Notes under the pieces: generated by a model | The model's input: only the letters and a program-made list of their open reading frames with translations | Databases searched by the model: none | Told to the model about the DNA's origin: nothing | In this document: in pieces, positions 1,327 through 43,526 of the stretch | Numbering within the stretch: position 1 is the first letter of the stretch | Layout of the letters: each line of letters starts with the position of its first letter | Program-made: the position numbers and the translations under genes | Assembly: GCA_964384645.1 (NCBI GenBank) | Contig: CAYLKL010000007.1 | Location: 1 to 43,526, forward strand | From: an uncultured Candidatus Saccharibacteria bacterium | GTDB lineage: Bacteria > Patescibacteriota > Minisyncoccia > Phycocordibacterales > UBA9973 | Reading direction: 5' to 3' | DNA length: 43,526 nt

Positions 1327-2598
1327 ATGGCAAATAAAAATAAAAAAACTGTAAAGAAGGCAAAACCAAAAGTAAAAAAAGTGGTTAAAAAATTGGTTAA
1401 AAAAGTTTTGAAAAAGAAACCAGCAAAAAAGGCCGTAAAGAAGGTTGTAAAAAGGGCCGTAAAGAAACCTGCTGTTAAAAAAGAAAAAGGTATTAAAAAT
1501 TTAACACCCAACCAAAAGAAAGAACTTGAAATGCTAAAGAGGGCAAATTCTTTGGTTACAAAAGGGAAGAAAAGGGGTTTTATTACGTACGACGAAATTT
1601 TGAAAGAATTGCCGGATATTGAGTCTGATATTTTACTATTGGATGAACTGTACGAAAAATTAGCTTCTGCGGGAGTTGATGTTTTGGAAGGTGGAAATTT
1701 GCTTGATATAGACGCCAACACTAAGGCGTCAGATTTGGGTCTTTCAAGAGATTCGAGTAGTTATGATTCTGTCCAAATGTATCTTAAGGAAATCGGTCAA
1801 TTTTCTTTGATTACTGCCGCTATGGAAAAAGATTTAGCGCGAAGAATTGAAGCTGGAGATCCTGAAGCTAAAAATCTTCTTGTTCGAGCAAACCTTAGAT
1901 TGGTAGTTGCTAATGCTAAAAAATACGCACAAAGAAGTGCTGACCTTACCTTGCTTGATTTGATACAAGAGGGAAATTTGGGATTGTTTAAGGCGGTAGA
2001 AAAGTTTGACTGGAGAAAGGGTTATAAGTTTTCAACTTATGCTACTTGGTGGATCAGACAGTCTATTACCAGAGCACTTGCAGACCAATCAAGAACTATT
2101 CGTATACCTGTTCACATGGTCGAAACTATTTCAAAATATAAACAAGTTGTTAGAAGATTGTCTCAAGAGTTGGGGCGCGATCCGCTTGCTGAAGAAGTCG
2201 CAACTGAAATGGGGTTAGATATTGAAAAAATTAGAACTATCGAAAGTATAAACCAAGACACGATGTCACTAGAGGCACCAATTGGAGATGACTCAGGAGA
2301 CGACAAGTCAACTCGTGGAGAATTTATTCCAGATGATAAGATTTTAAGACCTGACCAAGAATCTTCACGAAGAATTCTTCAAGATCAAATCAAAGCAGTT
2401 CTTGATGAATTGAATCCAAAAGAGAGAAAGATTTTGGAAATGCGTTACGGATTAACCGACGGAATCCAGCATACCCTTGAAGAAGTGGGACAAGAATTTG
2501 GAGTTACAAGAGAGCGTATTCGACAAATTGAAGCCAAGGTTCACGACAAGTTACGAGCACATGAAAGAATCGCAAGATTGAAAAATTATTTTGATTAA
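1327..2598 (+). CDS. rpoD: Primary sigma factor RpoD (sigma-70) with an unusual Lys/Ala/Val-rich basic N-terminal extension of about 55 aa
   Basis: Regions 1.2 to 4 are conserved ([40 protein letters not shown]; region 4 [22 protein letters not shown]). The gene starts 5 bp after dnaG. Confidence 0.93.
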
Positions 2599-2602
2599 AT
2601 AT

Positions 2603-2632
2603 AAAAAGCGTCTGAATATCAGACGCTTTTTA
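2603..2632. terminator. Bidirectional intrinsic terminator between the convergent rpoD and dsbA-like genes
   Basis: Hairpin GCGTCTGA-ATA-TCAGACGC, flanked by an A-run upstream and a T-run downstream. Confidence 0.75.
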
Positions 2633-2667
2633 TATTTGTAAGATTCCAGTATAAATTAGTAATATCT

Positions 2668-3381
2668 TTATTTATTTTTTATTGCGTCTATCTTTTCTAT
2701 AACTTTTGCATAAGATAATGCTCCGTTAATTGTGTCTACAATAACTCCATCTTTTCTTATTACAGCAAACGGCGTGCCCATTTTGTCAGTTAAAGTCTTA
2801 ACTTCTTCAATATCAGCATCAACTTGAGCGCTAATATTTGGATCTAATAAACACTTAGAAAACAAATCTTTATTTAATTCAATACTTTCCGCTATTTCTG
2901 GAAGCATTGCTGGAGGTAGTCCGTCATTTGAAGTTGTAGAGTCAAAAATTGCATCTAAGTACCTCCAGAAAATTATATTTCCACCTTGTTCTTCTGCGCA
3001 TTCTGTTGCCACTGCTTCGTTGTAAGCGTACTTATGTAGACCGCTTAGTGGTAGGTGTTTATATACCCACGCAACTTCACCTTTGTAGTTATCTATAACT
3101 TGGTGCATTGTTTTGTGGAAGTTTTTACAAAACGGACACTCTGTATCTGAATACTCTGTTATTACAATTTGAGCTGTTGGCGAGCCTAGTCTGTGATCAT
3201 TTACAGATGTTTCTGTCGGCTTTACTTCCCATGCGTATGTATATTTTTCAGCAGTGTCTTTTGGAAGAATTTTATCGCTAGTAATACCTGTTGTTGGTAA
3301 TTTGAAAAAAATTGCTACTGCAATAATAATTCCAGCTAAGACTATTGCTTGTGGAATGTTTAATTTTTGGTTTTCTGTCAT
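2668..3381 (-). CDS. DsbA-like thiol:disulfide oxidoreductase (thioredoxin fold), membrane-anchored
   Basis: N-terminal TM helix and a CPFC active-site motif (ECPFCKNFH). Confidence 0.75.
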   Translation of the reverse strand: MTENQKLNIPQAIVLAGIIIAVAIFFKLPTTGITSDKILPKDTAEKYTYAWEVKPTETSVNDHRLGSPTAQIVITEYSDTECPFCKNFHKTMHQVIDNYKGEVAWVYKHLPLSGLHKYAYNEAVATECAEEQGGNIIFWRYLDAIFDSTTSNDGLPPAMLPEIAESIELNKDLFSKCLLDPNISAQVDADIEEVKTLTDKMGTPFAVIRKDGVIVDTINGALSYAKVIEKIDAIKNK

Positions 3382-3700: not shown

Positions 3701-4945
3701 ATGAAAAATTCGTTACAGATTTTTGTGTACGCGGTTACTTTTCTGTCTATGTATGTACAGATTTTTTTTCTTGTAACTTTTTTTGAGAAAAGAAAAAAAA
3801 TTGAATACAGAAAAGGTGTTTTAAAATTAGATGAGTATCCGACAGTGTCGGTGGCTGTTCCTTGTTGGAACGAAGAACATACTGTTGAAAAAACAATGTA
3901 CTCGCTTTTGGAATTGGATTATCCAAAAGATAAATTAACTATCATTGCGGTTGACGATGGAAGTTCAGACAACACTTGGCAAGTTTTGCAGAAGTTTAAG
4001 GACTACTCAAATGTAAAATTAATAAAAAAAGAAAATGGCGGTAAACATACTGCAGTAAACTATGCAATTGAAAATTCTAACGCAGAGTTTGTTTCTTGTT
4101 TAGATGCTGACTCTTATGTAGATCCACAAGCACTGAAAAGAATAATAACTTATTTTCAAAGGGACCCAAAAACTATGGCGGTTGCTCCTGCTATTTTAAT
4201 TGATAAACCAAAGACATCAATACAAATTATCCAAAAAATAGAATACGAATGGGCTGTTTTCTTGAAGAAAATGCTTGCTTTGGTTGGGGGTATTTACGTT
4301 ACCCCTGGGCCATTTTCAGTTTTTAGAAGAAGGGTTTTCACAGACTTGGGCCTTTTCAGAAAAGCTCACAATACCGAAGATATGGAAATTGCTTTTAGAA
4401 TGCAAAAAAATCACTATAAGATCGATCAGTGTAATGACGCTTTTGTGTATACAACAGGCCCAAAAAGCGTTATAGCGCTCTATAAACAGCGGTTAAGGTG
4501 GATTTATGGGTTTATAATGAATACCATAGATTATAGGGGAATCCTTCTTAAAAAGGAGTATGGAACCTTTTCTCTTTTGGCGGTTCCAGCTGGGTTCGTT
4601 TCTATTGTGGCAGTACCTCTACTATTGGGTTTATTTTTGTATAAAATAATAAACAAAATAATAATTTACGTGGCAAAGGTTAGAGCTGTTGGTTTTGATT
4701 TTTCTTTTGGTATGCCAAACTTCGATTCTTTCTTTATAAGTTCGAATGCATATTTATTTATTGGGTTAATTTTGTATCTTTTTGTCATGACGTCAATTGT
4801 TATCGGTAAAAGAATGGCCACAGGAAAGTATCGTTTTGATATAAGAATAATCTATTTTATGGTTACATTTAGTTTAATAGCCCCATTTTGGGTCTTAAGG
4901 GCGCTATTTAATGCAGTATTTGCAAAAAAGACCGCTTGGAGGTAA
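3701..4945 (+). CDS. Family 2 glycosyltransferase, processive membrane-integrated type (polysaccharide synthase-like)
   Basis: DDGSSD (DxD) motif, ..D..D.., the QRLRW (QxxRW) motif, and multiple C-terminal TM helices. Confidence 0.8.
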   Translation: MKNSLQIFVYAVTFLSMYVQIFFLVTFFEKRKKIEYRKGVLKLDEYPTVSVAVPCWNEEHTVEKTMYSLLELDYPKDKLTIIAVDDGSSDNTWQVLQKFKDYSNVKLIKKENGGKHTAVNYAIENSNAEFVSCLDADSYVDPQALKRIITYFQRDPKTMAVAPAILIDKPKTSIQIIQKIEYEWAVFLKKMLALVGGIYVTPGPFSVFRRRVFTDLGLFRKAHNTEDMEIAFRMQKNHYKIDQCNDAFVYTTGPKSVIALYKQRLRWIYGFIMNTIDYRGILLKKEYGTFSLLAVPAGFVSIVAVPLLLGLFLYKIINKIIIYVAKVRAVGFDFSFGMPNFDSFFISSNAYLFIGLILYLFVMTSIVIGKRMATGKYRFDIRIIYFMVTFSLIAPFWVLRALFNAVFAKKTAWR

Positions 4946-8701: not shown

Positions 8702-8767
8702 TATCTTGTGCTAAAGACCCTTATTTTCTTAATCCCTTTGATTCTTCGGAATTGAAGGGGTTTTTTA

Positions 8768-8803
8768 TTCTATGGAACTCTTCGCACGAATAGTTCCATA
8801 GAA
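8768..8803. repeat. Palindromic element P1 (TTCTATGGAACTCTTCG-CA-CGAATAGTTCCATAGAA), a member of a family with copies at 38285 and 38631
   Basis: Near-perfect 17 bp inverted repeat. It shares the core ATGGAAC..TTCGC.CGAAT.GTTCCAT with P2 and P3. Confidence 0.7.
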
Positions 8804-8816
8804 TCGTCGTTATTCA

Positions 8817-8945
8817 CATTGAGAAGTTTTGATTATACGAACACGCGAGGACGAGCGTTCCGAATGAAAAAACAATCTGTTTGAGCAAGGCGAGTTATTG
8901 TTTTTAGCGAGTCCGAGTGTTGTGAGTATTCAAAACTTCTCAGTG
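8817..8945. repeat. MITE-like unit: 16 bp terminal inverted repeats (CATTGAGAAGTTTTGA / TCAAAACTTCTCAGTG) flanking about 97 bp of GC-rich sequence
   Basis: 15 of 16 positions in the two arms are complementary. The interior carries three repeats of G/C-rich GCGAG-type motifs. Confidence 0.45.
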
Positions 8946-8989
8946 GTGAGAGCATTTTTGGTTACTTTTTGGTGGTTAAAAAGTAACAA
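8944..8989 (-). repeat. 46 bp hairpin-containing element (GTTACTTTTT-N7-AAAAAGTAAC core), copy X. Inverted copy at 21058-21103.
   Basis: The reverse complement matches 21058-21103 at 44 of 46 positions; both differences are A/G. Confidence 0.7.
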
Positions 8990-8993
8990 ATCA

Positions 8994-9027
8994 AACCACC
9001 TTTGGTGGTTTTTCAAGTCTTTTTTAT
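8994..9027 (+). terminator. Hairpin plus T-run (AACCACC-TTT-GGTGGTT then TTTTCAAGTCTTTTTT) immediately upstream of proS. It is either a terminator for the upstream unit or an attenuator.
   Basis: Sequence-only call; no T-box consensus was found. Confidence 0.45.
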
Positions 9028-9055
9028 TTACCAAATATAGAGTAGTATTGTCTCT

Positions 9056-10312
9056 ATGAAGCAATCAAATTTTGTAACTCGAGCCGAGAAGACGGTTTCT
9101 GGGGAAGAAACCTCAAAAAACGCTATTTTACTTGAACAGGCAGGCTTTATAAATAAGCTTTCGTCTGGAATTTATAGCTTTTTGCCAATGGGACTTCGGG
9201 TTCTTAAAAAGATTGAAAACATAATAAGAGAAGAAATGAACACTGTTGGTGGTCAGGAAATTTTCATGCCAGCACTTCATCCAAAGGAAAATTGGGCAAC
9301 TACTGGAAGATGGGAATCTTTGGCTAGTGAAATGTATCATTTAAAAGACGCAAGTGATAGGGAGTTTGCATTGGGTGCAACACATGAAGAAGTTGTAACT
9401 CCACTTATTCAAAATTTTATTCGTTCATATCGCGATCTACCAAAATCTGTTTATCAATTCCAATCAAAGTTTCGAATGGAGCTTCGTGCCAAGGGTGGAC
9501 TTTTACGAGGACGAGAATTTATGATGAAAGATATGTATTCATTTCATACCACAGAAGAAGATCTGAATGCTTATTATGACAAAGTAACAAATGCTTACCG
9601 AAAAATTTTCCAACGTGTTGGTTTGGGGCATATTACTTATTTGACATTCGCTTCGGGTGGAAGTTTTTCAAAATTCTCTCACGAATTTCAAACAATCTGT
9701 TCAACTGGAGAAGATACTATTTATTTGGATGAAAATAAAAATATTGCTGTAAATAAAGAAGTTCTAGAAGATGATGTGCTGAAGGAAATTGGTATTGATA
9801 AGGAAAGCCTAAAAGAAAGAAAGGCAATTGAAGTTGGGAATATTTTTAAATTAAATACCAAATTTTCTGATCCTTTCAAAATGGAATTCAAAGACGAAGA
9901 CGGTACGAACAAAACAGTTTTAATGGGATGCTATGGAATTGGCCTTAGTCGAATAATGGGAACAGTTGTCGAAGCGCTTGCTGATGATAAGGGTCTTGTT
10001 TGGCCAGAATCAATCGCGCCATACAAAGTGCATTTGGTTATGCTTGGTACAAAAGAAGATACAAAACAAAAAGCAGAAGATTTGTACAAACAATTAAATG
10101 ATAAAGGTATTGAAGTTTTGTTTGATGATCGAGAAGTTTCAGCTTGAGAAAAATTAGCTGAAAGTGATTTGTACGGAATACCTATGAGACTCGTGGTGTC
10201 AGATAGAAGTTTGGCTGAAGGAATGGTTGAGTTAAAGAGCCGAACAGAAGAAAAGCCGAACATGATTGCGCTTGATAAAATTATTTCGAAATTAACTGAT
10301 GAAAATAATTAA
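9056..10312 (+). CDS. proS: Prolyl-tRNA synthetase (bacterial type without the INS editing domain). The reading frame contains an in-frame TGA at 10145-10147 that aligns with a conserved Gly; the ORF track stops at 10147.
   Basis: Class II motifs are present. The 54 codons after the TGA continue in the same frame as the conserved anticodon-binding C-terminus (EKLAESDLYGIPMRLVVSDRSLAEG...), ending at TAA 10310-10312 and overlapping the mreB start. Confidence 0.85.
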
Positions 10313-11351
10313 AGATTTTACAGATAAATTTTCAAATGAGATCGGAATAGATCTAGGGACTGCGAATACTTTAGTTTATCTAAAAGATCACGGTGTTGTT
10401 ATTTCCGAGCCGTCAGTTGTTGCGGTGAATCAAAAAACAAATCGTATTGTTGCGGTTGGTGCGGAAGCAAAACAAATGATGGGTAGAACTCCGACTCATA
10501 TAAAAGTAATCAGACCTCTTGTTGAAGGTGTTATTTCTGATTTTGAAATTACCGAAGAAATGTTGGCGTATTTGATAAATAAAGCCGAGAAGATTTCTAA
10601 AAAGTTTTTTAAACCACGTGTTGTTATTGGGGTGCCGAGTGGAATTACAAATGTTGAAGCTCGAGCTGTTTTTGACGCAGCACGTTCTGCTGGGGCACGA
10701 GATGTTTATATTATTGAAGAACCAATGGCTGCTGCTATTGGAGTAAGGTTGCCGATTTTTGAACCAGTCGGATCTATGGTTATTGATATAGGAGGAGGAA
10801 CATCTGATATTGCGGTTATTTCACTTGGTGGAATTGTTCGTTCAAAAAATTTACGAATCGCTGGAGATGTTTTGAATAAAAATATATCAGATTATATCCG
10901 AGATGAATTCAATCTTTTGATCGGAGAAAAAACAGCTGAGCAAGTTAAAATTTCTGCAGGGAATGTAATGCCAGGAACTCCAATTGAAATAGAAGTAAGA
11001 GGGCGAGATATCGTGACAGGGCTTCCTAGACAAGTTGTTGTTACTGATACGGATATTCGAGAGGCGATATCTGCTTCAATCTCGTCTTTGATTGATGCCG
11101 TAAAAGAGGTTTTGGAAACTACGCCACCAGAAATTCTCTCAGATATAATGCATCGAGGAATTGTGCTTATGGGGGGAGGGGCTCTTCTCTCTGGGCTTGA
11201 TACATTACTTCAAAATGTTCTCAGGCTTCCTGTAAAAGTTGCCGATGATCCACTAACAGCCGTGGCTCGTGGAACTGGTATAATATTTGAAGATATAAAT
11301 TTATACAGAGGAGTTTTACTTCAAATTGAAGATGATTTACCGTCAAGATAA
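10299..11351 (+). CDS. mreB: Rod shape-determining protein MreB (actin homologue)
   Basis: IGIDLGTANTLVY..., DIGGGTSDIAVIS and other actin-fold motifs. Confidence 0.93.
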   Translation: MKIIKDFTDKFSNEIGIDLGTANTLVYLKDHGVVISEPSVVAVNQKTNRIVAVGAEAKQMMGRTPTHIKVIRPLVEGVISDFEITEEMLAYLINKAEKISKKFFKPRVVIGVPSGITNVEARAVFDAARSAGARDVYIIEEPMAAAIGVRLPIFEPVGSMVIDIGGGTSDIAVISLGGIVRSKNLRIAGDVLNKNISDYIRDEFNLLIGEKTAEQVKISAGNVMPGTPIEIEVRGRDIVTGLPRQVVVTDTDIREAISASISSLIDAVKEVLETTPPEILSDIMHRGIVLMGGGALLSGLDTLLQNVLRLPVKVADDPLTAVARGTGIIFEDINLYRGVLLQIEDDLPSR

Positions 11352-12120
11352 AATAAATAAAAATAAAATTTACAAGATTATTTTCTTGCTCTTTTTTGTT
11401 CTGGTTATTTTAACTCCATTCGGTAATTTTTTGGGTAAAATAGCTATTAATATTTTTTCTGGTGCGGGTGCAGTAAGTGCGCGAGCCGAAGCATTGGTGG
11501 AAAATACAGAACTATCTTTAATGTCTAAAAAACAATTGATTGAAAAAATAAAAGTTCAAGAAGAAGAAATAAATAGACTGAGCATTACGGAAAATTTATA
11601 CACAGAACTCGTTGTTGATTATGAAAAAGTAGTCACTCTTTTGGATATTAAAAATCAATTCTCAGATTTGGTTTTAACTGAAGTTGTTTCTAGTCCAAGT
11701 CAAAATATTTATAACACAATAATAATTAGTAAAAGTTTTAATGTTGGAAGTTTTGTTTTTAGTGAATCAGGAATTCCAATTGGTACAATAGAAAGTAGTA
11801 GTGACAAAAATTCTACCGTTTTGTTTTTTTCAAATTCAGGGCGTGAGACAGAGGCATTTTTAAATAATGACACAACTCCAGTGACTCTTGTTGGAAAAGG
11901 ATCTGGGAATTTTACGATATCGCTTCCTCGAGAAATCGAAGTCAAAGAAGGAGAAAGTGTTTATTTGCCGGGAGTTAAAAATCCAATTGCTAAAGTTGGT
12001 TTTGTTGAATTTGATCCACGCGATCCATTTCAAAAAGTTTATCTTTTGAGTGATCAGAATGTTTATAAACTTGATTATGTTTTAGTACAAAGCGAAACTA
12101 AAATAGAAGCTGAACTCTAA
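11326..12120 (+). CDS. mreC: Rod shape-determining protein MreC
   Basis: It overlaps the mreB 3' end. It has an N-terminal TM, a coiled-coil segment, then a beta-rich domain, in the conserved mreBC arrangement. Confidence 0.7.
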   Translation: MKMIYRQDKINKNKIYKIIFLLFFVLVILTPFGNFLGKIAINIFSGAGAVSARAEALVENTELSLMSKKQLIEKIKVQEEEINRLSITENLYTELVVDYEKVVTLLDIKNQFSDLVLTEVVSSPSQNIYNTIIISKSFNVGSFVFSESGIPIGTIESSSDKNSTVLFFSNSGRETEAFLNNDTTPVTLVGKGSGNFTISLPREIEVKEGESVYLPGVKNPIAKVGFVEFDPRDPFQKVYLLSDQNVYKLDYVLVQSETKIEAEL

Positions 12121-22808: not shown

Positions 22809-23741
22809 ATGTCATTACGAGTTGGAGTTGTACGAGGTGGAATTAGTCCTGAATATCAGGTTTCTTTGAGTACGGGAGAGGCAATTCTAAAAGTAATAAA
22901 AGAACTAGCACATGAAGCAGATGACGTTGTGATTACAAAAAAAGGAGATTGGATAAATCGTGGTCTTTCTGCTTCAGCTCAAAAAATCTGCCAAAAAAAC
23001 GATGTCATTTGGAATTGTCTGCACGGTGAATATGGAGAGGATGGAAAACTAGAAGATCAAATTTCTGGACTTGGCGCAAAGATAATTGGAAAAACAGGTT
23101 GGGGAAGTGCTTTGACTTTAAATAAGGATTCAGCAAAAAGACACGCTGAGAGTTATGGCTTTCCTGTATTTCCTCATATTGTAATAAAACCAGAAGATGA
23201 AAACAGAGCTCGAAAAGTTCACAATACTTTTTCAGGTCCTTGGATAATAAAACCTCTTAAGAGTGGTTCGTCTTTAGGGATAAATGTTGCAAAATCATAT
23301 CCGGAATTAGAAGAAAAATTAGCTGATATTGAAATAGAAGTAATCGTCGAACCATTTTATAAAGGTAGAGAAATAATAGTCGGCGTTGTCCCTGAGCTAA
23401 GAGGAAAAAAGTGGTATAGCACAATCGTTTTGGAATTAAAGAAAGATGGACATATTTTGTCATATGACGATTTGGAAAAAGGTTCATACAGATTATTGCC
23501 TTTGAAGGACTACGGAATAGAACAAAAGCATGCCCTTTCTGAAATGGCAGAACTTGTCGGAGATGTCTTTAATTTAAATTATATGTACCTAACTCAGTGG
23601 ATAGAAACTCCACGCGGATATTTTTTGATAGACATAGATTCTCTTCCTGCACTTGATGATAATTCTATATTTAGAAAAAGCGCAGAACACTCTGGAGTAA
23701 ATCTAAAAGAAATAGTTGAAAGTATTCTAAAAAATATATGA
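22809..23741 (+). CDS. ddl: D-alanine--D-alanine ligase
   Basis: N-terminal VGVVRGGISPEYQVSLSTG and a C-terminal ATP-grasp domain. Confidence 0.8.
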   Translation: MSLRVGVVRGGISPEYQVSLSTGEAILKVIKELAHEADDVVITKKGDWINRGLSASAQKICQKNDVIWNCLHGEYGEDGKLEDQISGLGAKIIGKTGWGSALTLNKDSAKRHAESYGFPVFPHIVIKPEDENRARKVHNTFSGPWIIKPLKSGSSLGINVAKSYPELEEKLADIEIEVIVEPFYKGREIIVGVVPELRGKKWYSTIVLELKKDGHILSYDDLEKGSYRLLPLKDYGIEQKHALSEMAELVGDVFNLNYMYLTQWIETPRGYFLIDIDSLPALDDNSIFRKSAEHSGVNLKEIVESILKNI

Positions 23742-24004
23742 TGCAAACAGAATTTCCAAATAATTTTGGTTTTATGAATTTTTCAGGAATTGAATTTATG
23801 CCTTTGATAATGCAGTTCGCATTTTTTGGAGTTTTGCTTTTTACATCTGTTAGTCTTCTTATCTCATTTTTGCACTTGATATGGTACGGGTCTAGTAGTA
23901 CTAGATCTTTTTTATCTTTGGCTATTTTTGTTTTTGTTGCTGGGCCACTTTTTATATTTGCTTATAAAATAATGCCAAGTGTTTTATTTAGATTAAATAT
24001 ATGA
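23738..24004 (+). CDS. Small membrane protein (2 TM), probable partner of the following bPH_2 protein
   Basis: ATGA overlap with ddl. Hydrophobic. Confidence 0.5.
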   Translation: MMQTEFPNNFGFMNFSGIEFMPLIMQFAFFGVLLFTSVSLLISFLHLIWYGSSSTRSFLSLAIFVFVAGPLFIFAYKIMPSVLFRLNI

Positions 24005-26545: not shown

Positions 26546-27067
26546 ATGAGCATTAAAAGACAAGATATACACGACCACTTTATTTCTGTTTATAACGAGT
26601 ATAATCAGCCTATTTTCCGATATTTAGCCGTGAAGATATTCGACAGAGAGATTGCCAAAGACCTTTTGCAGGACGTTTTTATGAGGTACTGGACGCATAT
26701 TCATGCTGGTGGGGAGGTTGAAAAAATAAAGCCATTTTTATACAGAATTGCACACAATTTGATGGTAGATCAAATTAGACGCAAAAAACCTATTTTTTCA
26801 CTCGATAGTATATTAGAAGAAGGTGTAGATTTTAGTGAAGGAGATAATCCCGTAAAATCTCATGAAGATAAAAAATTTGCTGAAAGTATCATTCCGCGAC
26901 TTGATGAATTGGACGATGATTACAAGCAAGTTTTGATTATGAGATATGTTGACGATTTGTCGATTGGAGAAATTGCTGACATTTTAGAAATTCCTGAAAA
27001 TACAATTTCAGTAAGGTTGCACCGTGCTCACACAAAGTTAAAAAATATTATTAAAAAAGATGAATGA
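26546..27067 (+). CDS. ECF-type sigma factor (sigma-70 regions 2 and 4)
   Basis: Region 2 (LLQDVFMRYW) and the region 4 HTH (LSIGEIADILEIPENTISVRLHRAHTKLK). Confidence 0.8.
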   Translation: MSIKRQDIHDHFISVYNEYNQPIFRYLAVKIFDREIAKDLLQDVFMRYWTHIHAGGEVEKIKPFLYRIAHNLMVDQIRRKKPIFSLDSILEEGVDFSEGDNPVKSHEDKKFAESIIPRLDELDDDYKQVLIMRYVDDLSIGEIADILEIPENTISVRLHRAHTKLKNIIKKDE

Positions 27068-28649: not shown

Positions 28650-28651
28650 TG

Positions 28652-28724
28652 TGGACCGTACCGGGATTGAACCGGTCGCCCCTTCCATGCCATGGAAGCA
28701 CTCTACCAAATGAGCTAACGGCCC
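28652..28724 (-). tRNA. tRNA-Ala (anticodon GGC), CCA not encoded
   Basis: On the minus strand: GGGCCGT-TA-GCTC-ATTTGGTA-GAGT-G-CTTCC-ATGGCAT-GGAAG-GGGCG-ACCGG-TTCAATC-CCGGT-ACGGTCC-A. The G3:U70 pair is present. Confidence 0.85.
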
Positions 28725-28852: not shown

Positions 28853-31003
28853 ATGTTTGACCCAAACAAAATAACGTACTTTGGCGAAACTGATTTTCGT
28901 GGAGCCCGAACAAAGTTCGGCATTAAAGCGATTGATCGTACTCGACATATGTATGTAATCGGAAAGACGGGTATGGGTAAATCTACTATTTTGGAAAACA
29001 TGGCGATTCAAGATGTTCAAGGTGGTGAAGGTTTAGCGTTTATGGATCCACACGGAGGTTCAGCGGACAAACTCCTCGAATTTGTTCCAGAAGATCGAAT
29101 TCGTGATGTTATATATTACGCGCCTTTTGATTCTGAATTCCCAATCGCTTTCAATGTTCTAGAAGACGTTGGCGCAGACAAAAGACCTCTCGTTGCGTCA
29201 GGGCTAAAGAGTTCATTCAAAAAGTTTTGGGTGGATGCGTGGAGTGCTCGTATGGAATATATTTTAAACAATATTTTACTCGCGCTTTTGGAATATCCAG
29301 ACGCGACACTTCTTGGCGTAAACAGAATGCTTTCTGATAAAGATTACACAAAAAGAGTTGTTGAAAATGTACCCGACTCTTCTGTAAAAGCTTTTTGGGT
29401 GGATGAATTTGCAAAATATTCTGACAAGTATATGCAAGAAGCTGGAGCTGCTATTCAAAACAAAATTGGACAATTTGCTACAAATCCGCTCGTTCGAAAT
29501 ATTATCGGCCAACCAAAATCTTCTTTTGATATTCGTCGCATAATGGATGAAGGGAAAATTTTGATCATAAACTTGTCCAAAGGACGAATCGGAGAACAAA
29601 ACGCAAACCTTCTTGGTGGAATGCTTATTACAAAAATCTATTTGGCCGCGATGTCCCGAGCCGACGCAACTCCACAGGTTTTACAAGCTCTGCCAAACTT
29701 TTATTTATACGTCGACGAATTCCAATCTTTTGCGTCGGATTCTTTTGCAGACATTTTGTCTGAAGCTCGAAAATATAAATTAAATCTTATTATTGCTCAC
29801 CAATACGTAGAACAAATGTCAGAAGCCGTTCGAGCGGCAGTGTTTGGAAACGTTGGTTCTATGATTATTTACCGTGTTGGTTCATATGACGCACAAGTCT
29901 TTGAAAAAGAATTGGCACCAGCTTTCAACGCTGAAGATATTGTTAACTTGGGAAAATACCAAATGTATTTACGGTTGATGATAAATGGTGTTGGTTCGAA
30001 ACCTTTTTCAGGTACAGGTATGGCGCCAATAAAAGAATCACACCGATCTTTCGCAAAAGAAATTATTGAAAGTTCTAGATCTCAATTTGCTGCACCAAGA
30101 GCACAAGTCGAAGAAAACATTCGTGCTTGGTATAACGACGGTAATACTCCAAAAAAAGAACCGGCAACTGAGGGCTCACAATCGTACGAAAAACCAAACA
30201 AACCTTTTGAAAAAAGTTTTAAAGATTTTGGAAATAAAAAAGAATTTACTCCGTCTACAAATAATTCATTTCAAAATACAAACAGAGAACCTAGAAAAGA
30301 AAATTTTACACCAAGACCAAATCCGCCACAAAATCAAAATTATTCTGCCCCAAAGCCAGCTCAGCCTTGGCAAAATAATGCACCTAGACCTGCACAAGCT
30401 CCGGTAATTAATAATGTTGCGCCAACCGCCTCACCTGAGCCTGTTTTGAAACAAGAGATAGTTCAAAAACCAATTTCTAAACCAATTCCGCCAAAAACAC
30501 AAAATATTTTTGTTCCACCTAAAAAAGAAGAAGTAAAAATATCTCCATCATTACAGAAAATTTTATCAACTCTTGAGGGTGACAATCCAGAAAAAGTAGA
30601 ATTACCAATTGTAGAAGTTCCAAAAACAGAAATACAAAAACCATTTTCAACTTTTGTTAAAAAAGAACCGACAAGAGCTGTTACCGCAGAATCGAGCTCT
30701 CTTTTAAAGAGTGCTCTTGAGAAAGCTTTAGCTAGTAAGAATAAAGAAAGTGTTGAAACTTCAAAACCAGACACAGTAGAACCAAAAGTTCAACCAGAAA
30801 AACCAAAAGAAGCAATTGTAGATACTTCTGTTTATAGTCCAGTAGTGCCGGTTGTAGAAGATAAATCAATACCTGATATTCAAACACCTCCACCAACGCC
30901 TGAAATTAAAAAAGAAGAATACGCTTTACCAACACCACAAAAAGATGTTCCAGAAGATGTTTTAAGAGATTTGTTAAAAACTGAGAATGAGCCACAAGGT
31001 TAA
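28853..31003 (+). CDS. Soluble TraG/VirD4/TrwB-like (T4SS coupling-protein family) P-loop ATPase with a C-terminal Pro/Glu/Lys/Gln-rich low-complexity tail of about 300 aa
   Basis: Walker A GKTGMGKST, the DPHGG motif (DPKGE-like), and Walker B YLYVDEFQSF. There are no N-terminal TM helices. Confidence 0.5.
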   Translation: MFDPNKITYFGETDFRGARTKFGIKAIDRTRHMYVIGKTGMGKSTILENMAIQDVQGGEGLAFMDPHGGSADKLLEFVPEDRIRDVIYYAPFDSEFPIAFNVLEDVGADKRPLVASGLKSSFKKFWVDAWSARMEYILNNILLALLEYPDATLLGVNRMLSDKDYTKRVVENVPDSSVKAFWVDEFAKYSDKYMQEAGAAIQNKIGQFATNPLVRNIIGQPKSSFDIRRIMDEGKILIINLSKGRIGEQNANLLGGMLITKIYLAAMSRADATPQVLQALPNFYLYVDEFQSFASDSFADILSEARKYKLNLIIAHQYVEQMSEAVRAAVFGNVGSMIIYRVGSYDAQVFEKELAPAFNAEDIVNLGKYQMYLRLMINGVGSKPFSGTGMAPIKESHRSFAKEIIESSRSQFAAPRAQVEENIRAWYNDGNTPKKEPATEGSQSYEKPNKPFEKSFKDFGNKKEFTPSTNNSFQNTNREPRKENFTPRPNPPQNQNYSAPKPAQPWQNNAPRPAQAPVINNVAPTASPEPVLKQEIVQKPISKPIPPKTQNIFVPPKKEEVKISPSLQKILSTLEGDNPEKVELPIVEVPKTEIQKPFSTFVKKEPTRAVTAESSSLLKSALEKALASKNKESVETSKPDTVEPKVQPEKPKEAIVDTSVYSPVVPVVEDKSIPDIQTPPPTPEIKKEEYALPTPQKDVPEDVLRDLLKTENEPQG

Positions 31004-32414
31004 AATAATTTTATTTTTTGTTTTGTTTTTAACGCCCGTATTTGCGAGTGCGGCAGATGTGTCTATTAGTGAAATAATGTACGATCCTGCTGGGACCGAT
31101 ACTGGTCACGAATGGATTGAGATTTACAATTCAGGTAGTAGTGTAAGTTTAAGTGGTTGGAAATTTTTTGAAGAAGGTTCAAATCATGGGTTGGCGGAAT
31201 ACCAAGGCGGGTTAACACTTGGTGAAAATAGCTATGCAGTAATTGTTTCGGATCCAGTAAAATTTTTAGAAGATTATCCAGGATTTTCTGGGATCATTCT
31301 CGATTCTTCGTGGTCTTCTTTTAATAATACAGGCGAGAGTTTGGCGATAAAGAATAATACCAATAGTGTGGTTTTTCAAGTGAATTACACAGGTGGAGGG
31401 CAAGCTGCTGGAGATGGTAATAGTTTGCAGTTTTATTCAGGTGGTTGGACTGCAGGTATTCCAACTCCTGGGGCCCCTAATACTGATGAAGTAAATGAAG
31501 GGGACGATCAAAATGCTGGTGGAGACAATAATGAAGATGAGGAAGAAGAAGTTGAGACTCAAACTGTTTCTGGTGGCGAGAAAGAAGAGTTAGTAAAAAT
31601 TTACAATGGAACAACAATAAAAATACAAACTGATCAAAATGCTGTGGTTGGGGTTCCTTTTAAATTCAAGGTAAATGTTTTGGATGAATATGGAAGAGAG
31701 TTAAAAGTGGGAATTTTTAAATGGAATTTTGGTGACGGTATGACTTCGGAAGAAAAAGACGTAGTTGAATTTTTGCATATTTATAAAAAAGCAGGGAAGT
31801 ATGTTGCGTTCTTGGATTATTTTGAAAAATCAAGAAATGTTGTTCCAGACGCTACTTTAAAAGTTGTTGTTACAGTTATTGAGCCAGGGCTAAAGATACA
31901 AAGTATTGATAATGATAAAAATATAGAAATAAAAAATGAAGGATCGACAGAGCGAGATATTTCTGGGTGGATGTTATTTTTTGGAAATCAAATTTTTACG
32001 CTTCCTCCACACAGTATAGTTCTTGCGAAAAGTTCTATTTTTTTAAATCCTTTAGCTCATAATTTTTCAGGATTAAACTCAAATTCAAAGCTTGATTTAT
32101 ATTTACCAACCAATGAGTTCTACGCAACTTATCCTGAGCCAGTAAAAGTTGCACAGGCTTTTTCTTCTAGTACGACCCAAAGAGTTGTTAAAAGTAGTGT
32201 TGTTGAAAAAGAGAGTGTTGAAGTACCGAGTGATTCACAACAAGCTTCAGTTGTTCTGTCGCAAGACTCAAAAGATAACACCGGAGTAAATCCAAAAATA
32301 TTTATTGGTGCATTTGTTTTGTTTTGCCTTGTCGCAATGTTTGTTTTTTATCGTTTTGGTAAGAGTAAAAATACACAAGAAAACGAAGCGGATGATTACA
32401 AAATTTTGTCTTAA
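30987..32414 (+). CDS. Surface/secreted protein with lamin-tail-domain (LTD) modules and a PKD-like module, plus a C-terminal TM anchor
   Basis: Signal peptide; SEIMYDPAGTDTGHEWIEIYNSG (LTD); FKWNFGDGMTSEE..GKYVAFLD (PKD-like); a second LTD-like segment; and a C-terminal hydrophobic helix. Confidence 0.6.
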   Translation: MSHKVKIILFFVLFLTPVFASAADVSISEIMYDPAGTDTGHEWIEIYNSGSSVSLSGWKFFEEGSNHGLAEYQGGLTLGENSYAVIVSDPVKFLEDYPGFSGIILDSSWSSFNNTGESLAIKNNTNSVVFQVNYTGGGQAAGDGNSLQFYSGGWTAGIPTPGAPNTDEVNEGDDQNAGGDNNEDEEEEVETQTVSGGEKEELVKIYNGTTIKIQTDQNAVVGVPFKFKVNVLDEYGRELKVGIFKWNFGDGMTSEEKDVVEFLHIYKKAGKYVAFLDYFEKSRNVVPDATLKVVVTVIEPGLKIQSIDNDKNIEIKNEGSTERDISGWMLFFGNQIFTLPPHSIVLAKSSIFLNPLAHNFSGLNSNSKLDLYLPTNEFYATYPEPVKVAQAFSSSTTQRVVKSSVVEKESVEVPSDSQQASVVLSQDSKDNTGVNPKIFIGAFVLFCLVAMFVFYRFGKSKNTQENEADDYKILS

Positions 32415-38916: not shown

Positions 38917-41586
38917 ATGAATCTAGTCCAACTACAAGAAAATCTTGAGAATTTAAGTCAAAACTTTTCAGAGCAAACGTTCATTTTTGATTTGCTTTCA
39001 GTGTATGAGTTGCCTAAAAGTACTATTTCTTTACTTTCTAAAAATCCATACAAATTATCTGGTAGAGATGATCAGATTATCCTCAAGAACAAAGTACTTT
39101 TTCATATAACAACACTCGAGGAAGATGAGCATGTTGCGATCGATGCACTTGCAAAAGATAAGTTCTCATACAAGTTTAACCCTCGATTTATTATCGTTAC
39201 GGATTTCGTAACGTTTTTGGCTATTGATACAAAAACAAAAGAAACACTCGATATTGAAATTAAAGATCTCGGCAAGCATTACGCTTTCTTTTTGCCTTGG
39301 TGCGGAATGGAAAAATCACAGCATGTAAATGAAAATCCTGCCGATATCCGTGCCGCCTACAAAATGGATAAGCTATATCAGGCAATTGTTACTGATGATC
39401 CTGATTACTATAAAAACAATTGCCATGATCTAAACATATTTCTCTCAAGACTTCTGTTCTGCTTCTTTGCGGAAGATACAGGTATTTTTCCTAAAGTTGG
39501 AATGTTTACCAACTCTGTGACTTCTCATACTCACGAAGACGGTAGCGAAATGGATACCTATTTTTCTACACTATTTGATGTTTTGAATACAAAAGATTCA
39601 GATCGATCAAAGTTTGCATCTCATTTTCTAGAATTTCCCTATGTAAACGGAGGTCTTTTTGAAACCAATATTAAGCTACCAACATTTACAGTGAACTCAC
39701 GGAAGTTGATTATTGAATGTGGAAAGCTGAATTGGGATTCTATCAATCCCGATATTTTCGGATCTATGATTCAGGCTGTTGTTCATCCAGGACAGCGTGA
39801 GAATCTTGGAATGCACTACACCTCCGTTCCAAACATAATGAAAGTGATTGAACCTCTCTTTTTAAATGATCTCTATACGGAACTAGAAAATTCAAAGAAT
39901 GATATCAAGAAACTCACAAAACTTCGTGAGCGAGTTTCAAAAATAAAAATCTTTGATCCAGCTTGTGGGTCAGGTAACTTTTTGATTATTTCTTATAAGG
40001 AACTTTCTAAGCTTGAATCAAAGATCATTAGTTATGCCAATGATCTTGGCCATCAGATGATGCCCTATTCGGGTGTATCGCTAAACTCATTTTATGGAAT
40101 TGAGATAGACGATTTTGCACATGAGATAGCTCGACTTTCATTATGGTTGGCACAACACCAGATGAACCAATACTTTGACGGAATGTTTGGAATCATGAAA
40201 GCAACACTCCCTCTTAAAGAAAGTGGAAAGATTGTATGTGCCAATGCAACACGGGCTACTTGGGAAGAAGTTTGTCCTCGCAAGGATCAAGTTGTGGGAG
40301 AATATGAAATCTATGTAGTGGGTAATCCACCATATCTTGGATCTAGAAACCAAGAAGATGAGCAAAAGGAAGATCTAAAAAATCTGTTTGTGAATGACTA
40401 CAAGAGTCTCGACTATATATCAGCTTGGTTTTATAAAGGTGCAAAATATGTTTCAGGTTATGAAAATATTAAACTAGCTTTTGTTTCGACAAACTCGATT
40501 TCTCAAGGAGAACAAGTTTCATTATTGTGGCCAAGAATCTTAGGTGAAGGTGTTGAAATATTTTTTGCGTATCAGTCTTTTAAATGGAAAAATCTTGCAA
40601 AAGGAAATGCAGGAGTTACTTGTGTAATTATTGGATTATCTAACCCTTCAAATCACCCTAAGTATATTTTCAATGATAACCAGTACTCTTTAGTTAAAGA
40701 AATTAATCCATATCTAAAAAATACAACAGTAATAAATGTTAGTAAGCGAAGTAGTCCCATTTCTGAATTACCAGAAATGACATATGGGAATATGCCTCTT
40801 GAAGGGAATTTTTTAAAACTAGATTTATCTGAAAAAGTTGAGTTAATAAATAAATATCCAAATTCAGCAAAATTTATTAGACCACTGATTGGTGGTAGTG
40901 AATTTATGAATGGGAATAGTAGATATTGTCTATGGATAGAAGATGCTGATTTAAATGAAGTAAATAAAATTCCAGATATAAAAAAGCGAATAGAGAGTGT
41001 TCGAAAATTTAGAGAGACTGGCGGAGATGTCGCAAGAACCTTAGCAGACAGATCTCACCAGTTTAGATATCGACATGAAGCTAAAAATCACTTCATAATC
41101 GTACCTTGCACATCTTCAGAAAATAGAGATTATATGCCTTGCGGTGTTTTTAATTCTAAATTCATCAGCCTTAACTCACTTCAAGTGATTTATGATTCAG
41201 ATCTGTATGTTTTTGGTGTATTAGTTTCTAAAATGCACATGACATGGGTGCGTGCTGTGGGAGGCAGACTGAAAACAGACCTAAGATACTCTTCTGCATT
41301 GTGTTACAACACTTTTCCTTTTCCAGATATAACGCCTAAACAAAAAGAATCACTTACTACCCATGTATACAATATTCTGGAAGAGCGCGAGAAATATCCA
41401 AGTAAAACAATGGCTGATTTATATGATCCAGACAAGATGCCAGATGGATTGCGGGAAGCTCACAAATATTTAGATCAAGCCATAGATCAGATATACCGAA
41501 GCAAACCGTTTGAAAGTGACGAAGATCGACTAGCTTACTTGTTCAAACTTTACGAAGAGATGATTACTAGAAAAACTAACCAATAA
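38917..41586 (+). CDS. MmeI-family Type IIL restriction-modification enzyme. A single polypeptide carries an N-terminal PD-(D/E)xK nuclease, a helical spacer, a gamma-class N6-adenine methyltransferase and a C-terminal target-recognition domain.
   Basis: Nuclease motif IIVTDF..LAIDTK (D96, D104, K106); LLFCFFAEDTGIF; FPYVNGGLFE; HYTSVPNIMKVIEPLFL; SAM motif I IFDPACGSGNFL; motif IV VVGNPPY; FVSTNSISQGEQVSLLWP; VPCTSSENRDYMPCG. These blocks are collinear with MmeI. Confidence 0.85.
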   Translation: MNLVQLQENLENLSQNFSEQTFIFDLLSVYELPKSTISLLSKNPYKLSGRDDQIILKNKVLFHITTLEEDEHVAIDALAKDKFSYKFNPRFIIVTDFVTFLAIDTKTKETLDIEIKDLGKHYAFFLPWCGMEKSQHVNENPADIRAAYKMDKLYQAIVTDDPDYYKNNCHDLNIFLSRLLFCFFAEDTGIFPKVGMFTNSVTSHTHEDGSEMDTYFSTLFDVLNTKDSDRSKFASHFLEFPYVNGGLFETNIKLPTFTVNSRKLIIECGKLNWDSINPDIFGSMIQAVVHPGQRENLGMHYTSVPNIMKVIEPLFLNDLYTELENSKNDIKKLTKLRERVSKIKIFDPACGSGNFLIISYKELSKLESKIISYANDLGHQMMPYSGVSLNSFYGIEIDDFAHEIARLSLWLAQHQMNQYFDGMFGIMKATLPLKESGKIVCANATRATWEEVCPRKDQVVGEYEIYVVGNPPYLGSRNQEDEQKEDLKNLFVNDYKSLDYISAWFYKGAKYVSGYENIKLAFVSTNSISQGEQVSLLWPRILGEGVEIFFAYQSFKWKNLAKGNAGVTCVIIGLSNPSNHPKYIFNDNQYSLVKEINPYLKNTTVINVSKRSSPISELPEMTYGNMPLEGNFLKLDLSEKVELINKYPNSAKFIRPLIGGSEFMNGNSRYCLWIEDADLNEVNKIPDIKKRIESVRKFRETGGDVARTLADRSHQFRYRHEAKNHFIIVPCTSSENRDYMPCGVFNSKFISLNSLQVIYDSDLYVFGVLVSKMHMTWVRAVGGRLKTDLRYSSALCYNTFPFPDITPKQKESLTTHVYNILEEREKYPSKTMADLYDPDKMPDGLREAHKYLDQAIDQIYRSKPFESDEDRLAYLFKLYEEMITRKTNQ

Positions 41587-41590
41587 TATT

Positions 41591-43526
41591 ATGAAAACAA
41601 TTCAAGTAGCAGAAGCAACATACGCACAAACAGGACAAAGCACCAAGCTTAATGAGTTTGGTATGCGTGAAATGCAGGCAAAAGCATTTGAGAAAAAAGG
41701 TGCTCAATACCTCCTATTGAAAGCACCACCTGCATCTGGAAAATCTAGAGCTTTAATGTTTCTTGCTTTAGACAAGCTGACTAATCAAGGAATCAAAAAG
41801 GTTATTGTTGCTGTCCCTGAAAAATCTATTGGTGGATCTTTCGGTGAGACCAATTTAACTCAAGGTGGCTTCTTTGCTGACTGGAAACCCAACGATAATT
41901 ACAACCTATGTACTCCAGGTCTCGATAACGCCAAGGGTAAGGTTGAGGCGTTTAAGAACTTTATGGATAACGATGAGAAGATTCTTATCTGCACTCACGC
42001 TACTCTTCGTTTTGCATGTGAACAAATCGAGGATACGAAGTTTAATGACATGCTTATTGCTATAGATGAGTTCCATCATGTTTCTGCTGATAAAGAAAGC
42101 AGTATTTTAGGACGAGTTCTACACGGAATAATGACGAACTCAAACGCACACATTATTGCTATGACGGGGTCGTATTTCCGTGGTGACGGTGTAGCTGTTT
42201 TGTTACCACAAGATGAGGCTAAGTTTCAAAAAGTAACTTACAACTACTACCAGCAGTTGAACGGCTATACATATTTAAAAACCTTGGGTATTGGATACCA
42301 CTTTTATCAAGGTAAATATACTTCGGCGATTGCTGAGGTTCTTGATACAAACAAGAAAACGATTTTACACATTCCAAATGTAAACTCTGGAGAATCTACC
42401 AAAGATAAACTCAATGAAGTTGATTTGATCTTGGATATTATCGGTGAGGTAGACCATCAAGATCGTGAGACTGGTGTTATCTATGTAAAGCGTGACGGTG
42501 ACGGAAAAATACTCAAGGTAGCAAATCTTGTAGATGATTCTGTTGATCGAGACAAGATTTCAAACTATCTCCGTACTATGAAAAAGGAAGAGGACATGGA
42601 TATTATTATTGCTCTTGGTATGGCGAAAGAAGGTTTTGACTGGCCGTACTGCGAACACGCTTTGACTGTCGGCTATCGTAGTTCGCTTACTGAGATCATT
42701 CAGATCATCGGTCGCTGTACTCGTGACAGTGCAAACAAAACCCATGCACAATTCACTAATCTTATTGCTCAACCTGATGCAAAAGACGGCGAGGTTAAAG
42801 TGTCAGTAAACAACATGCTCAAGGCGATCACTTGTTCTTTGCTTATGGAACAAGTTATGGCTCCGCACTATAACTTCAAACCACGATTTCCAAATGATGA
42901 CACCACTTTTACTCCAGGTGAAATAAAGGTAAATGGATTCAAAGCACCAAGTACGGATCGTGTTCGAGAAATTATTGAATCTGATATCAACGATCTCAAA
43001 GCTTCAATTCTTCAAGATGATCAAATGATTAAAGCGTTGCCTGGAAATGTTGATCCCGAGGTAATCAACAAAGTAATGATCCCAAAGATCATTCAGATGA
43101 AATACCCTGATCTAACAGATCTTGAAGTAGAGGAAGTTCGTCAACACGTTGTTGTTGATTCTGTAATTAAGAACGGAGAAATCAAAGAAGTTGGTGATAA
43201 GAAATTTGTTCGTATGGCAGGTCAGTTTGTGAATATTGATGATCTAAATATTGACCTTATCGACAGTATCAATCCGTTCCAAGAAGCTTTTGAGATTCTC
43301 TCAAAATCAGTGACTTCAAGTATCCTTAAGGTTATTCAAGATACAATTGATTCATCTCGAATCGAGATGACACCAGAAGAAGTTAAGATCCTATGGCCTA
43401 AAGCTAAGGAGTTCACAATACAAACAGGTCGAAAGCCAGACATATCTTCGTCTGACCCCCTTGAGAAGCGTTTGGCGGAAGCGGTACTGTACTTGAAGAA
43501 GCTCAAGGCTGAACAAATTCAAAATT
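41591..43526 (+). CDS. SF2 (ResIII/DEAH-type) helicase, 3'-truncated by the window end (at least 645 aa). It starts 4 nt after the MmeI-like stop and is absent from the ORF track because no stop lies within the window.
   Basis: Motif I LLKAPPASGKS, motif II IAIDEFHH, motif III IAMTGSY, motif VI QIIGRCTR. The frame is open from the ATG at 41591 to the window end. Confidence 0.75.
   Translation, partial: MKTIQVAEATYAQTGQSTKLNEFGMREMQAKAFEKKGAQYLLLKAPPASGKSRALMFLALDKLTNQGIKKVIVAVPEKSIGGSFGETNLTQGGFFADWKPNDNYNLCTPGLDNAKGKVEAFKNFMDNDEKILICTHATLRFACEQIEDTKFNDMLIAIDEFHHVSADKESSILGRVLHGIMTNSNAHIIAMTGSYFRGDGVAVLLPQDEAKFQKVTYNYYQQLNGYTYLKTLGIGYHFYQGKYTSAIAEVLDTNKKTILHIPNVNSGESTKDKLNEVDLILDIIGEVDHQDRETGVIYVKRDGDGKILKVANLVDDSVDRDKISNYLRTMKKEEDMDIIIALGMAKEGFDWPYCEHALTVGYRSSLTEIIQIIGRCTRDSANKTHAQFTNLIAQPDAKDGEVKVSVNNMLKAITCSLLMEQVMAPHYNFKPRFPNDDTTFTPGEIKVNGFKAPSTDRVREIIESDINDLKASILQDDQMIKALPGNVDPEVINKVMIPKIIQMKYPDLTDLEVEEVRQHVVVDSVIKNGEIKEVGDKKFVRMAGQFVNIDDLNIDLIDSINPFQEAFEILSKSVTSSILKVIQDTIDSSRIEMTPEEVKILWPKAKEFTIQTGRKPDISSSDPLEKRLAEAVLYLKKLKAEQIQN

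What the first reader, a model, noticed from the sequence alone, without database searches (positions are those of the whole stretch)
10130..10165. In-frame TGA in proS exactly at a conserved glycine position
proS is open from 9056 to a TGA at 10145-10147 (..FDDREVSA*). The same frame then continues for 54 codons encoding the conserved anticodon-binding C-terminus (EKLAESDLYGIPMRLVVSDRSLAEG..). It ends at TAA 10310-10312, overlapping the mreB start. The TGA aligns with the Gly of the conserved ..(P/A)G(E/V)KF.D.DL(I/Y)GIP motif. TGA is GGA with a single T-for-G change, and UGA-to-Gly is exactly the code-25 reassignment of SR1/Gracilibacteria. The rest of the window uses TGA as a genuine stop: the ATGA overlaps at 23738-23741 and 24001-24004, and 27065-27067. 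No tRNA with a UCA anticodon is present. So this is either a sequencing or strain-level error, a recent nonsense mutation in an essential gene, or a site of programmed read-through.
Basis: seen in the sequence. Interest (0 to 1): 0.6.

Follow-up and report, generated by a model that had tools for sequence, protein, structure and literature searches.

The report
Lone G-to-T stop codon in proS
The in-frame TGA in the prolyl-tRNA synthetase gene is real in this sequence, but it is a one-base difference seen only in this assembly, since five other assemblies of the same species read GGA (glycine) there, so it is most likely a sequence error or a stray deleterious variant and not a change in how the stop codon is read.

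Summary
proS (9056-10312, +) has one in-frame TGA at 10145-10147 (codon 364), and the same frame runs 54 more codons to TAA at 10310-10312.

The codon replaces a Gly that is invariant in 27/27 homologues. It cuts the anticodon-binding domain roughly in half.

The TGA is private to this window. Five independent assemblies of the same Paceibacteria species (98.5-99.97% nucleotide identity) all read GGA. Against 16.9 kb of contigs from one run (SRR12712864), the window differs at only two bases. These are 10145 (G->T) and 11833 (C->A, His->Asn in mreC). Both are G:C->T:A changes and both alter the protein.

The organism uses TGA as a stop:
- 4 of 37 genes end in TGA.
- 721 Gly codons are standard.
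- proS holds the only internal TGA in 12,165 codons.

There is no SECIS-like structure and no tRNA-UCA in the window.

Verdict: this is a private point substitution. Most likely it is a consensus or sequencing artefact, or a minority allele. Less likely it is a real, recent nonsense mutation. It is not code-25-like recoding or programmed read-through. Only the read pileup can separate error from real allele. Interest is low.

The parts
9056..10312 (+). proS, a bacterial-type prolyl-tRNA synthetase without the INS editing domain. It has 418 codons including the in-frame TGA.
   Evidence: Pfam tRNA-synt_2b plus HGTP_anticodon. PDB ProRS 5ucm matches at E=4e-103. P0001 (418 aa) is identical except for G at residue 364.
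10145..10147 (+). In-frame TGA at codon 364. The T at 10145 is the private base; every other assembly has G (GGA, Gly).
   Evidence: sequence. (L001-L005 all have G at 10145). (Gly in 27/27 homologues).
9056..10147 (+). The 363-aa product expected if TGA terminates. It keeps the catalytic core but only the first strand, helix and strand of the anticodon-binding domain.
   Evidence: ORF. (HGTP_anticodon model positions 1-39 of 94 only). (model of the intact protein: strand 325-330, helix 334-349 and strand 354-357 kept; helix 363-373, strands 377-382, 390-395 and 402-405, and helix 406-414 lost).
10148..10312 (+). The 54 codons after the TGA, in the same frame. They encode the rest of the anticodon-binding domain and end at TAA 10310-10312.
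   Evidence: (HGTP_anticodon model positions 44-93). The DNA is identical to the intact alleles in L001, L002 and L005.
10299..11351 (+). mreB. Its ATG overlaps the last 14 nt of proS, an arrangement that could allow translational coupling (inferred).
   Evidence: (an identical MreB follows an intact proS in L002-L005).

Best explanation
The TGA is a single G->T substitution at the first base of the invariant Gly364 codon (GGA) of an ordinary, otherwise intact prolyl-tRNA synthetase gene. It is found only in this assembly.

The organism is a Paceibacteria-type CPR bacterium with 35% GC. It uses the standard bacterial code, in which TGA is a stop.

Most likely the base does not represent the functioning population. 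It would be either a sequencing, consensus or assembly error, or a low-frequency deleterious allele that the assembler happened to keep. On this reading the cells make a normal 418-aa ProRS from GGA, as in every sibling assembly. No recoding mechanism is involved.

Shown here:
- The base is private to this assembly.
- The Gly is invariant among homologues.
- TGA is used as a stop in the window.
- No recoding signal is present.

Inferred: that the T is an artefact or minority allele and not the fixed state of a living strain.
For: (1) All five other assemblies of the same species read GGA. These are L001 (JGI 3300043411), L002 (SRR12712864), L003 (GCA_018001705.1), L004 (GCA_030917385.1) and L005 (SRR12762276), at 98.5-99.97% nucleotide identity. 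The proS ORF of L001 and L002 matches the window at 1256/1257 bases. The T is the only mismatch in L002 (2872 bp) and L005 (1362 bp).

(2) The window is 100.000% identical to Logan contigs L006, L007, L008, L009, L010 and L017. Against all SRR12712864 contigs (L002, L006, L008, L012, L017; 16.9 kb) it differs at only two bases: 10145 G->T and 11833 C->A. Both are private to the window, both are G:C->T:A transversions and both alter the protein. Ordinary strain differences here are mostly synonymous (33/41 against L003, 8/10 against L001). That pattern fits changes that selection has not yet filtered, meaning errors or very recent mutations.

(3) TGA is a stop in this organism. In 37 genes the stop codons are TAA 26, TAG 7 and TGA 4. 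ddl and the ECF sigma gene end at TGA right at the end of their Pfam domains. There are 721 standard Gly codons against one in-frame TGA in 12,165 codons.

(4) The downstream RNA fold is unremarkable (z = -0.79) and no Rfam family matches. No tRNA with a UCA anticodon is in the window or in the 18 related loci.

(5) The truncation removes more than half of the anticodon-binding domain. A fixed allele would therefore disable an essential enzyme.

(6) Uncurated metagenome assemblies are known to carry local errors that corrupt gene sequences. One curated 1.13-Mb CPR genome had 13 of them (PMC7111523).
Against: No reads are available, so an error cannot be told apart from a real allele. The window otherwise agrees perfectly with independent assemblies over about 17 kb, so its consensus is generally very accurate. 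A random error is therefore a rare event here. Only about 5% of possible substitutions in proS create a stop. However, the finding was picked because it is a stop, which biases that comparison. The spectrum argument rests on only two private substitutions. The window's own contig and sample could not be identified.
Confidence: 0.8

Rival explanations
1. A real, very recent nonsense mutation fixed, or at high frequency, in the sampled strain. proS would be a newly made pseudogene in a lineage that is dying. Alternatively the lineage limps along on basal near-cognate read-through of the leaky UGA codon (for example by tRNA-Trp, giving G364W), or is covered by some unseen second source of Pro-tRNA.
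For: The window's consensus is otherwise flawless against independent assemblies (100.000% over L006-L010 and L017), which argues against a sloppy assembly. G:C->T:A changes are also a natural mutation class in AT-rich genomes (own knowledge). The rest of the gene shows no decay, as expected for a very young lesion.
Against: ProRS is an essential, normally single-copy enzyme. The stop removes helix 363-373, three strands and the C-terminal helix of the anticodon-binding domain. Gly364 is invariant, so Trp insertion would probably not restore function. No other assembly of this population carries the allele. The Logan contigs L002 and L005 run through the site as G without a break.
Confidence: 0.16
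2. Programmed recoding of UGA. This could be decoding as Gly by a tRNA-Gly(UCA), as in code 25 of Gracilibacteria and Absconditabacteria. It could also be selenocysteine insertion, or a dedicated read-through signal.
For: The TGA sits exactly at a Gly position. UGA=Gly is known in other CPR lineages (PMC8629427, PMC4032931). TGA is the rarest stop in the window (4/37).
Against: The stop is absent from 5/5 conspecific assemblies and 27/27 homologues. TGA ends four genes in the window. Only one in-frame TGA occurs in 12,165 codons. No SECIS-like hairpin or Rfam match lies downstream. No tRNA-UCA is in the window or related loci. Known UGA=Gly reassignment is confined to Gracilibacteria and Absconditabacteria, whereas the named close relatives of this proS are Pacebacteria, Paceibacterota and Nomurabacteria.
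Confidence: 0.03
3. A functional split gene. The 363-aa piece and a separately started C-terminal piece (for example from TTG 10169, 47 aa) would assemble into an active enzyme.
For: An ORF starting at TTG 10169 exists in the same frame.
Against: The break lies inside the beta-sheet domain, not between domains. No Shine-Dalgarno-like sequence is evident in the bases before 10169 (read). Sibling strains with otherwise identical DNA have the intact gene. There has therefore been no time for a split arrangement to evolve.
Confidence: 0.01

Closest known systems
Ordinary nonsense SNV or consensus error in a metagenome-assembled genome
   Same: It is a single-base change. It is private to one assembly. 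The flanking sequence matches intact alleles exactly. It hits an invariant residue of an essential gene. No signal accompanies it. Local errors in MAGs that corrupt gene calls are documented (PMC7111523).
   Different: Nothing distinguishes it. The only unusual detail is that GGA->TGA mimics the code-25 assignment.
Genetic code 25 (UGA=Gly) of Gracilibacteria and Absconditabacteria (SR1)
   Same: A UGA sits at a conserved Gly position in a low-GC CPR bacterium.
   Different: Code-25 genomes carry in-frame UGA throughout their genes, have tRNA-Gly(UCA) and lack RF2 (PMC8629427). Here there is one UGA in 12,165 codons and TGA terminates 4 of 37 genes. The lineage is Paceibacteria, and conspecific strains have GGA.
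Bacterial selenocysteine recoding (UGA plus SECIS)
   Same: An in-frame UGA lies inside a conserved enzyme gene.
   Different: There is no SECIS-like hairpin downstream (z = -0.79). Orthologues have Gly, not Cys or Sec. The UGA is not conserved.
Bacterial-type ProRS lacking the INS editing domain (for example Rhodopseudomonas palustris ProRS, PDB 2i4l)
   Same: The gene itself has a class IIa catalytic core plus a C-terminal HGTP anticodon-binding domain, about 420 aa, with strong matches to solved ProRS structures.
   Different: The only difference is the premature stop in this copy.

Membership tests
Genetic code 25 (UGA=Gly) | In-frame TGA codons are frequent across genes, at conserved Gly positions | tested here: not met
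   One in-frame TGA in 12,165 sense codons of 37 genes, against 721 standard Gly codons.
Genetic code 25 (UGA=Gly) | TGA is not used as a terminator | tested here: not met
   Four of 37 genes end in TGA. ddl and the ECF sigma gene end at TGA at the end of their Pfam domains.
Genetic code 25 (UGA=Gly) | A tRNA-Gly with anticodon UCA is present and release factor 2 is absent | not testable with these tools
   The window and 18 related loci hold no tRNA-UCA. The rest of the genome, including prfB, is not available.
Genetic code 25 (UGA=Gly) | Belongs to Gracilibacteria or Absconditabacteria | tested here: not met
   Named close homologues are Pacebacteria, Paceibacterota and Nomurabacteria. Known UGA=Gly is restricted to the two other clades.
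Programmed stop-codon read-through or recoding site | The stop codon is conserved at the site in related genomes | tested here: not met
   GGA in 5/5 conspecific assemblies. Gly in 27/27 homologues.
Bacterial selenocysteine insertion | A SECIS stem-loop lies immediately 3' of the UGA | tested here: not met
   The fold of 10140-10215 has z = -0.79, with 39/200 shuffles folding as well. No Rfam hit better than E = 1.4.
Bacterial selenocysteine insertion | Orthologues have Sec or Cys at the position | tested here: not met
   The position is invariant Gly.
Prolyl-tRNA synthetase (class IIa, bacterial type without INS) | Class II core domain plus HGTP anticodon-binding domain, with homology to solved ProRS | tested here: met
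   PF00587 at 1.9e-31 and PF03129 at 5e-18 on the intact allele P0001. 5ucm matches at E = 4.2e-103.
Decayed pseudogene | Several disabling lesions or relaxed constraint | tested here: not met
   There is one lesion only. The other 1256 of 1257 bases match the intact alleles in L001 and L002.

The most novel reading that the evidence does not exclude
The T at 10145 is real and fixed in this strain, and full-length ProRS is still made because UGA is partly decoded as Gly by a suppressor tRNA encoded elsewhere in the genome. That would be an incipient, ambiguous UGA=Gly stage in Paceibacteria, outside the two CPR clades known to use code 25.
Probability: 0.02. Interest if true: 0.8.

Novelty: not a real feature. 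Interest (0 to 1): 0.07.

Why it matters
If taken at face value, the site would suggest UGA=Gly decoding or read-through in a new CPR lineage, and the evidence says it should not be read that way. In practice the proS gene of this record should be annotated as intact-but-interrupted or as a suspected error. It should not be used as evidence of a code change. The case shows that one GGA->TGA slip automatically looks like code 25.

Tried and rejected
- I looked for the window's own contig by exact-product look-up of the 363-aa piece, the 47-aa piece, UvrA and the VirD4-like protein. None is on record, so the source sample and its gene calls remain unknown.
- I scanned metagenome contigs, genome contigs and viral contigs for the 48-mer around the site with N at the variable base. 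There were 0 hits for either allele.
- I scanned metagenome contigs and genome contigs with a degenerate back-translated pattern (KGA at the site). Again there were 0 hits. These collections evidently lack this clade's proS, so the scans say nothing either way.
- I considered whether Logan contig ends near the site (L005 starts at 10116) indicate a T/G bubble. I rejected this. A contig end that coincides with a known polymorphism abuts it directly (L005 ends at 11477, next to the polymorphic base 11478). In contrast, L005 carries G 29 bases inside its start. L002 and L005 both run through 10145 as G.
- SECIS or structured RNA downstream: none found.
- Promoter or terminator signals around the site: at background level.
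- A leader RNA upstream of proS: no Rfam family.
- A literature search for the run accession SRR12712864 found nothing.

Full report
**Observation.**
- An ORF starts at ATG 9056 and runs to TGA at 10145-10147 (...FDDREVSA*).
- The same frame continues for 54 codons (EKLAESDLYGIPMRLVVSDRSLAEG...) to TAA at 10310-10312.
- This overlaps the mreB ATG at 10299.

Pfam places the class II core (PF00587) in residues 94-306. It splits the HGTP anticodon-binding domain (PF03129) across the stop. Model positions 1-39 fall in the 363-aa piece and positions 44-93 in the 54-aa piece. The two pieces are therefore one interrupted gene. The intact form is a 418-aa bacterial-type ProRS without the INS editing domain, and its best solved relative is 5ucm at E = 4e-103.

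**Context.** The window has 35% GC. It is an ordinary chromosomal stretch of a Paceibacteria-type CPR bacterium. Named close homologues are Pacebacteria, Paceibacterota and Nomurabacteria. The genes include dnaG, rpoD, a DsbA-like gene, a GT2 glycosyltransferase, tRNA-Thr, tsf, rpsB, proS, mreB, mreC, tgt, truB, uvrB, uvrA, uvrC, ddl, an ECF sigma factor, a VirD4-like ATPase, UDG and an MmeI-type enzyme.

**Is TGA a sense codon here? No.** I read the window with only TAA and TAG as stops. Of the long, real genes, only proS then holds an internal TGA. In 37 genes the stops are TAA 26, TAG 7 and TGA 4. There are 12,165 sense codons, including 721 standard Gly codons (313 of them GGA), against one in-frame TGA. 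ddl ends at TGA at position 203/204 of its Pfam C-terminal domain. The ECF sigma gene ends at TGA just after region 4. The window's tRNAs are Thr-UGU, Ala-UGC and Ala-GGC. None of the 18 related loci has a UCA anticodon.

**Is the stop conserved? No, and this is the decisive result.**
- A homologue search returned P0001, a 418-aa protein identical to the window's read-through translation except for Gly at residue 364.
- Its two contigs (L001 from JGI 3300043411, L002 from Logan SRR12712864) match the window's proS at 1256 of 1257 bases. The one difference is G instead of T at 10145.
- Three more assemblies carrying the identical mreB also read GGA. These are L003 (GCA_018001705.1), L004 (GCA_030917385.1) and L005 (Logan SRR12762276).
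- In L002 (2872 bp) and L005 (1362 bp) the T is the only mismatch.
- Gly is invariant at this column in 27/27 homologues down to 58% identity.

**How different is the window from its siblings elsewhere?** I fetched further contigs through exact-product look-ups. The window is 100.000% identical to L006 (3492 bp), L007, L008 (7785 bp), L009, L010 and L017. Against all contigs of run SRR12712864 (L002, L006, L008, L012, L017; 16.9 kb) it differs at two bases only:
- 10145 G->T, which changes Gly364 to a stop in proS.
- 11833 C->A, which changes His170 to Asn in mreC. Here L003, L004, L011, L012 and the last base of L002 all have C.

Both are private to the window, both are G:C->T:A transversions and both change the protein. 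Ordinary differences among these strains are mostly synonymous (33 of 41 against L003, 8 of 10 against L001). With only two events this is suggestive and not proof. It is still the pattern expected of changes that selection has not filtered, meaning errors or brand-new mutations. About 5% of all possible substitutions in proS would create a stop. The finding was selected because it is a stop, so that rarity carries no weight.

**Recoding signals.** The 76 nt from 10140 fold no better than shuffled sequence (z = -0.79). An E-value-threshold Rfam scan (up to E = 10) of 9900-10400 gives only chance hits. Promoter and terminator scans are at background level. The next in-frame start (TTG 10169) has no evident Shine-Dalgarno sequence (read).

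**Consequence if the stop were real.** I built an AlphaFold model of the intact allele (mean pLDDT 73; 77-93 across the domain, residues 321-410). The anticodon-binding domain runs strand 325-330, helix 334-349, strand 354-357, helix 363-373, strand 377-382, short helix 383-387, strands 390-395 and 402-405, then helix 406-414. Gly364 sits at the N-terminus of helix 363-373. Termination would leave only the first strand-helix-strand, so the product would almost certainly be inactive. Basal read-through of UGA normally inserts Trp (own knowledge), at an invariant Gly. The mreB start overlaps the proS end, so a premature stop could also weaken coupled translation of mreB (inference).

**Interpretation.** The TGA is a private one-base substitution in an otherwise intact, standard-code gene.
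- The most likely reading (about 0.8) is that it does not represent the functioning population. It would be a sequencing, consensus or assembly artefact, or a minority allele kept by the assembler. Uncurated metagenome assemblies are known to carry such local errors (PMC7111523).
- A real, very recent nonsense allele remains possible (about 0.16). It cannot be excluded without reads, especially as the window's consensus is otherwise flawless.
- Programmed recoding (code-25-like UGA=Gly, Sec, or read-through) fails every test that could be run (about 0.03). Known UGA=Gly reassignment is limited to Gracilibacteria and Absconditabacteria, which have tRNA-Gly(UCA) and lack RF2 (PMC8629427; PMC4032931).
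- A functional split gene is very unlikely (about 0.01).

**What led nowhere.**
- The window's own contig is not in the look-up index.
- Pattern scans of the three contig collections found neither allele.
- A literature search for the run accession found nothing.

**Verdict.** This is not a biological feature of note. The read pileup at 10145 (and 11833) is the one decisive check.

Noticed in passing
window 11833 (mreC codon 170): A second substitution private to the window. It has A where L003, L004, L011, L012 and the last base of L002 have C, changing His to Asn. Like 10145 it is a G:C->T:A transversion. Together these are the only two differences from 16.9 kb of SRR12712864 contigs.
   Followed up: partly
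window 8702-9055 (intergenic, upstream of proS): An unusually long (about 350 nt) intergenic region holds a perfect 12-bp inverted repeat (TTCTATGGAACT...AGTTCCATAGAA, 8768-8803). It also has terminator-like hairpins at 8731-8762 and 8993-9011. No Rfam family matches (best E = 0.026, below gathering score).
   Followed up: partly
window 28651-28724 (-): ARAGORN called tRNA-Ala(GGC) here, but the whole-window Rfam gathering scan missed it. A local scan scores it at 53.8 bits, so it is a normal tRNA that the speed filters lost.
   Followed up: yes
window 38917-41586 (+) and 41564-43526 (+): A complete MmeI-family type IIL restriction-modification enzyme (all five MmeI Pfam domains) is followed by a ResIII/DEAD helicase gene that runs off the window end.
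   Followed up: no
window 28853-32414 (+): A VirD4/TrwB-like coupling-protein ATPase (weak Pfam matches) is followed by a secreted-looking protein with a lamin-tail domain and a PKD domain.
   Followed up: no
window 2496-2737 and 4712-4804: Differences from the roughly 99%-identical contigs L013 and L014 are tightly clustered in short tracts and not spread evenly. This pattern could reflect recombination between strains.
   Followed up: no
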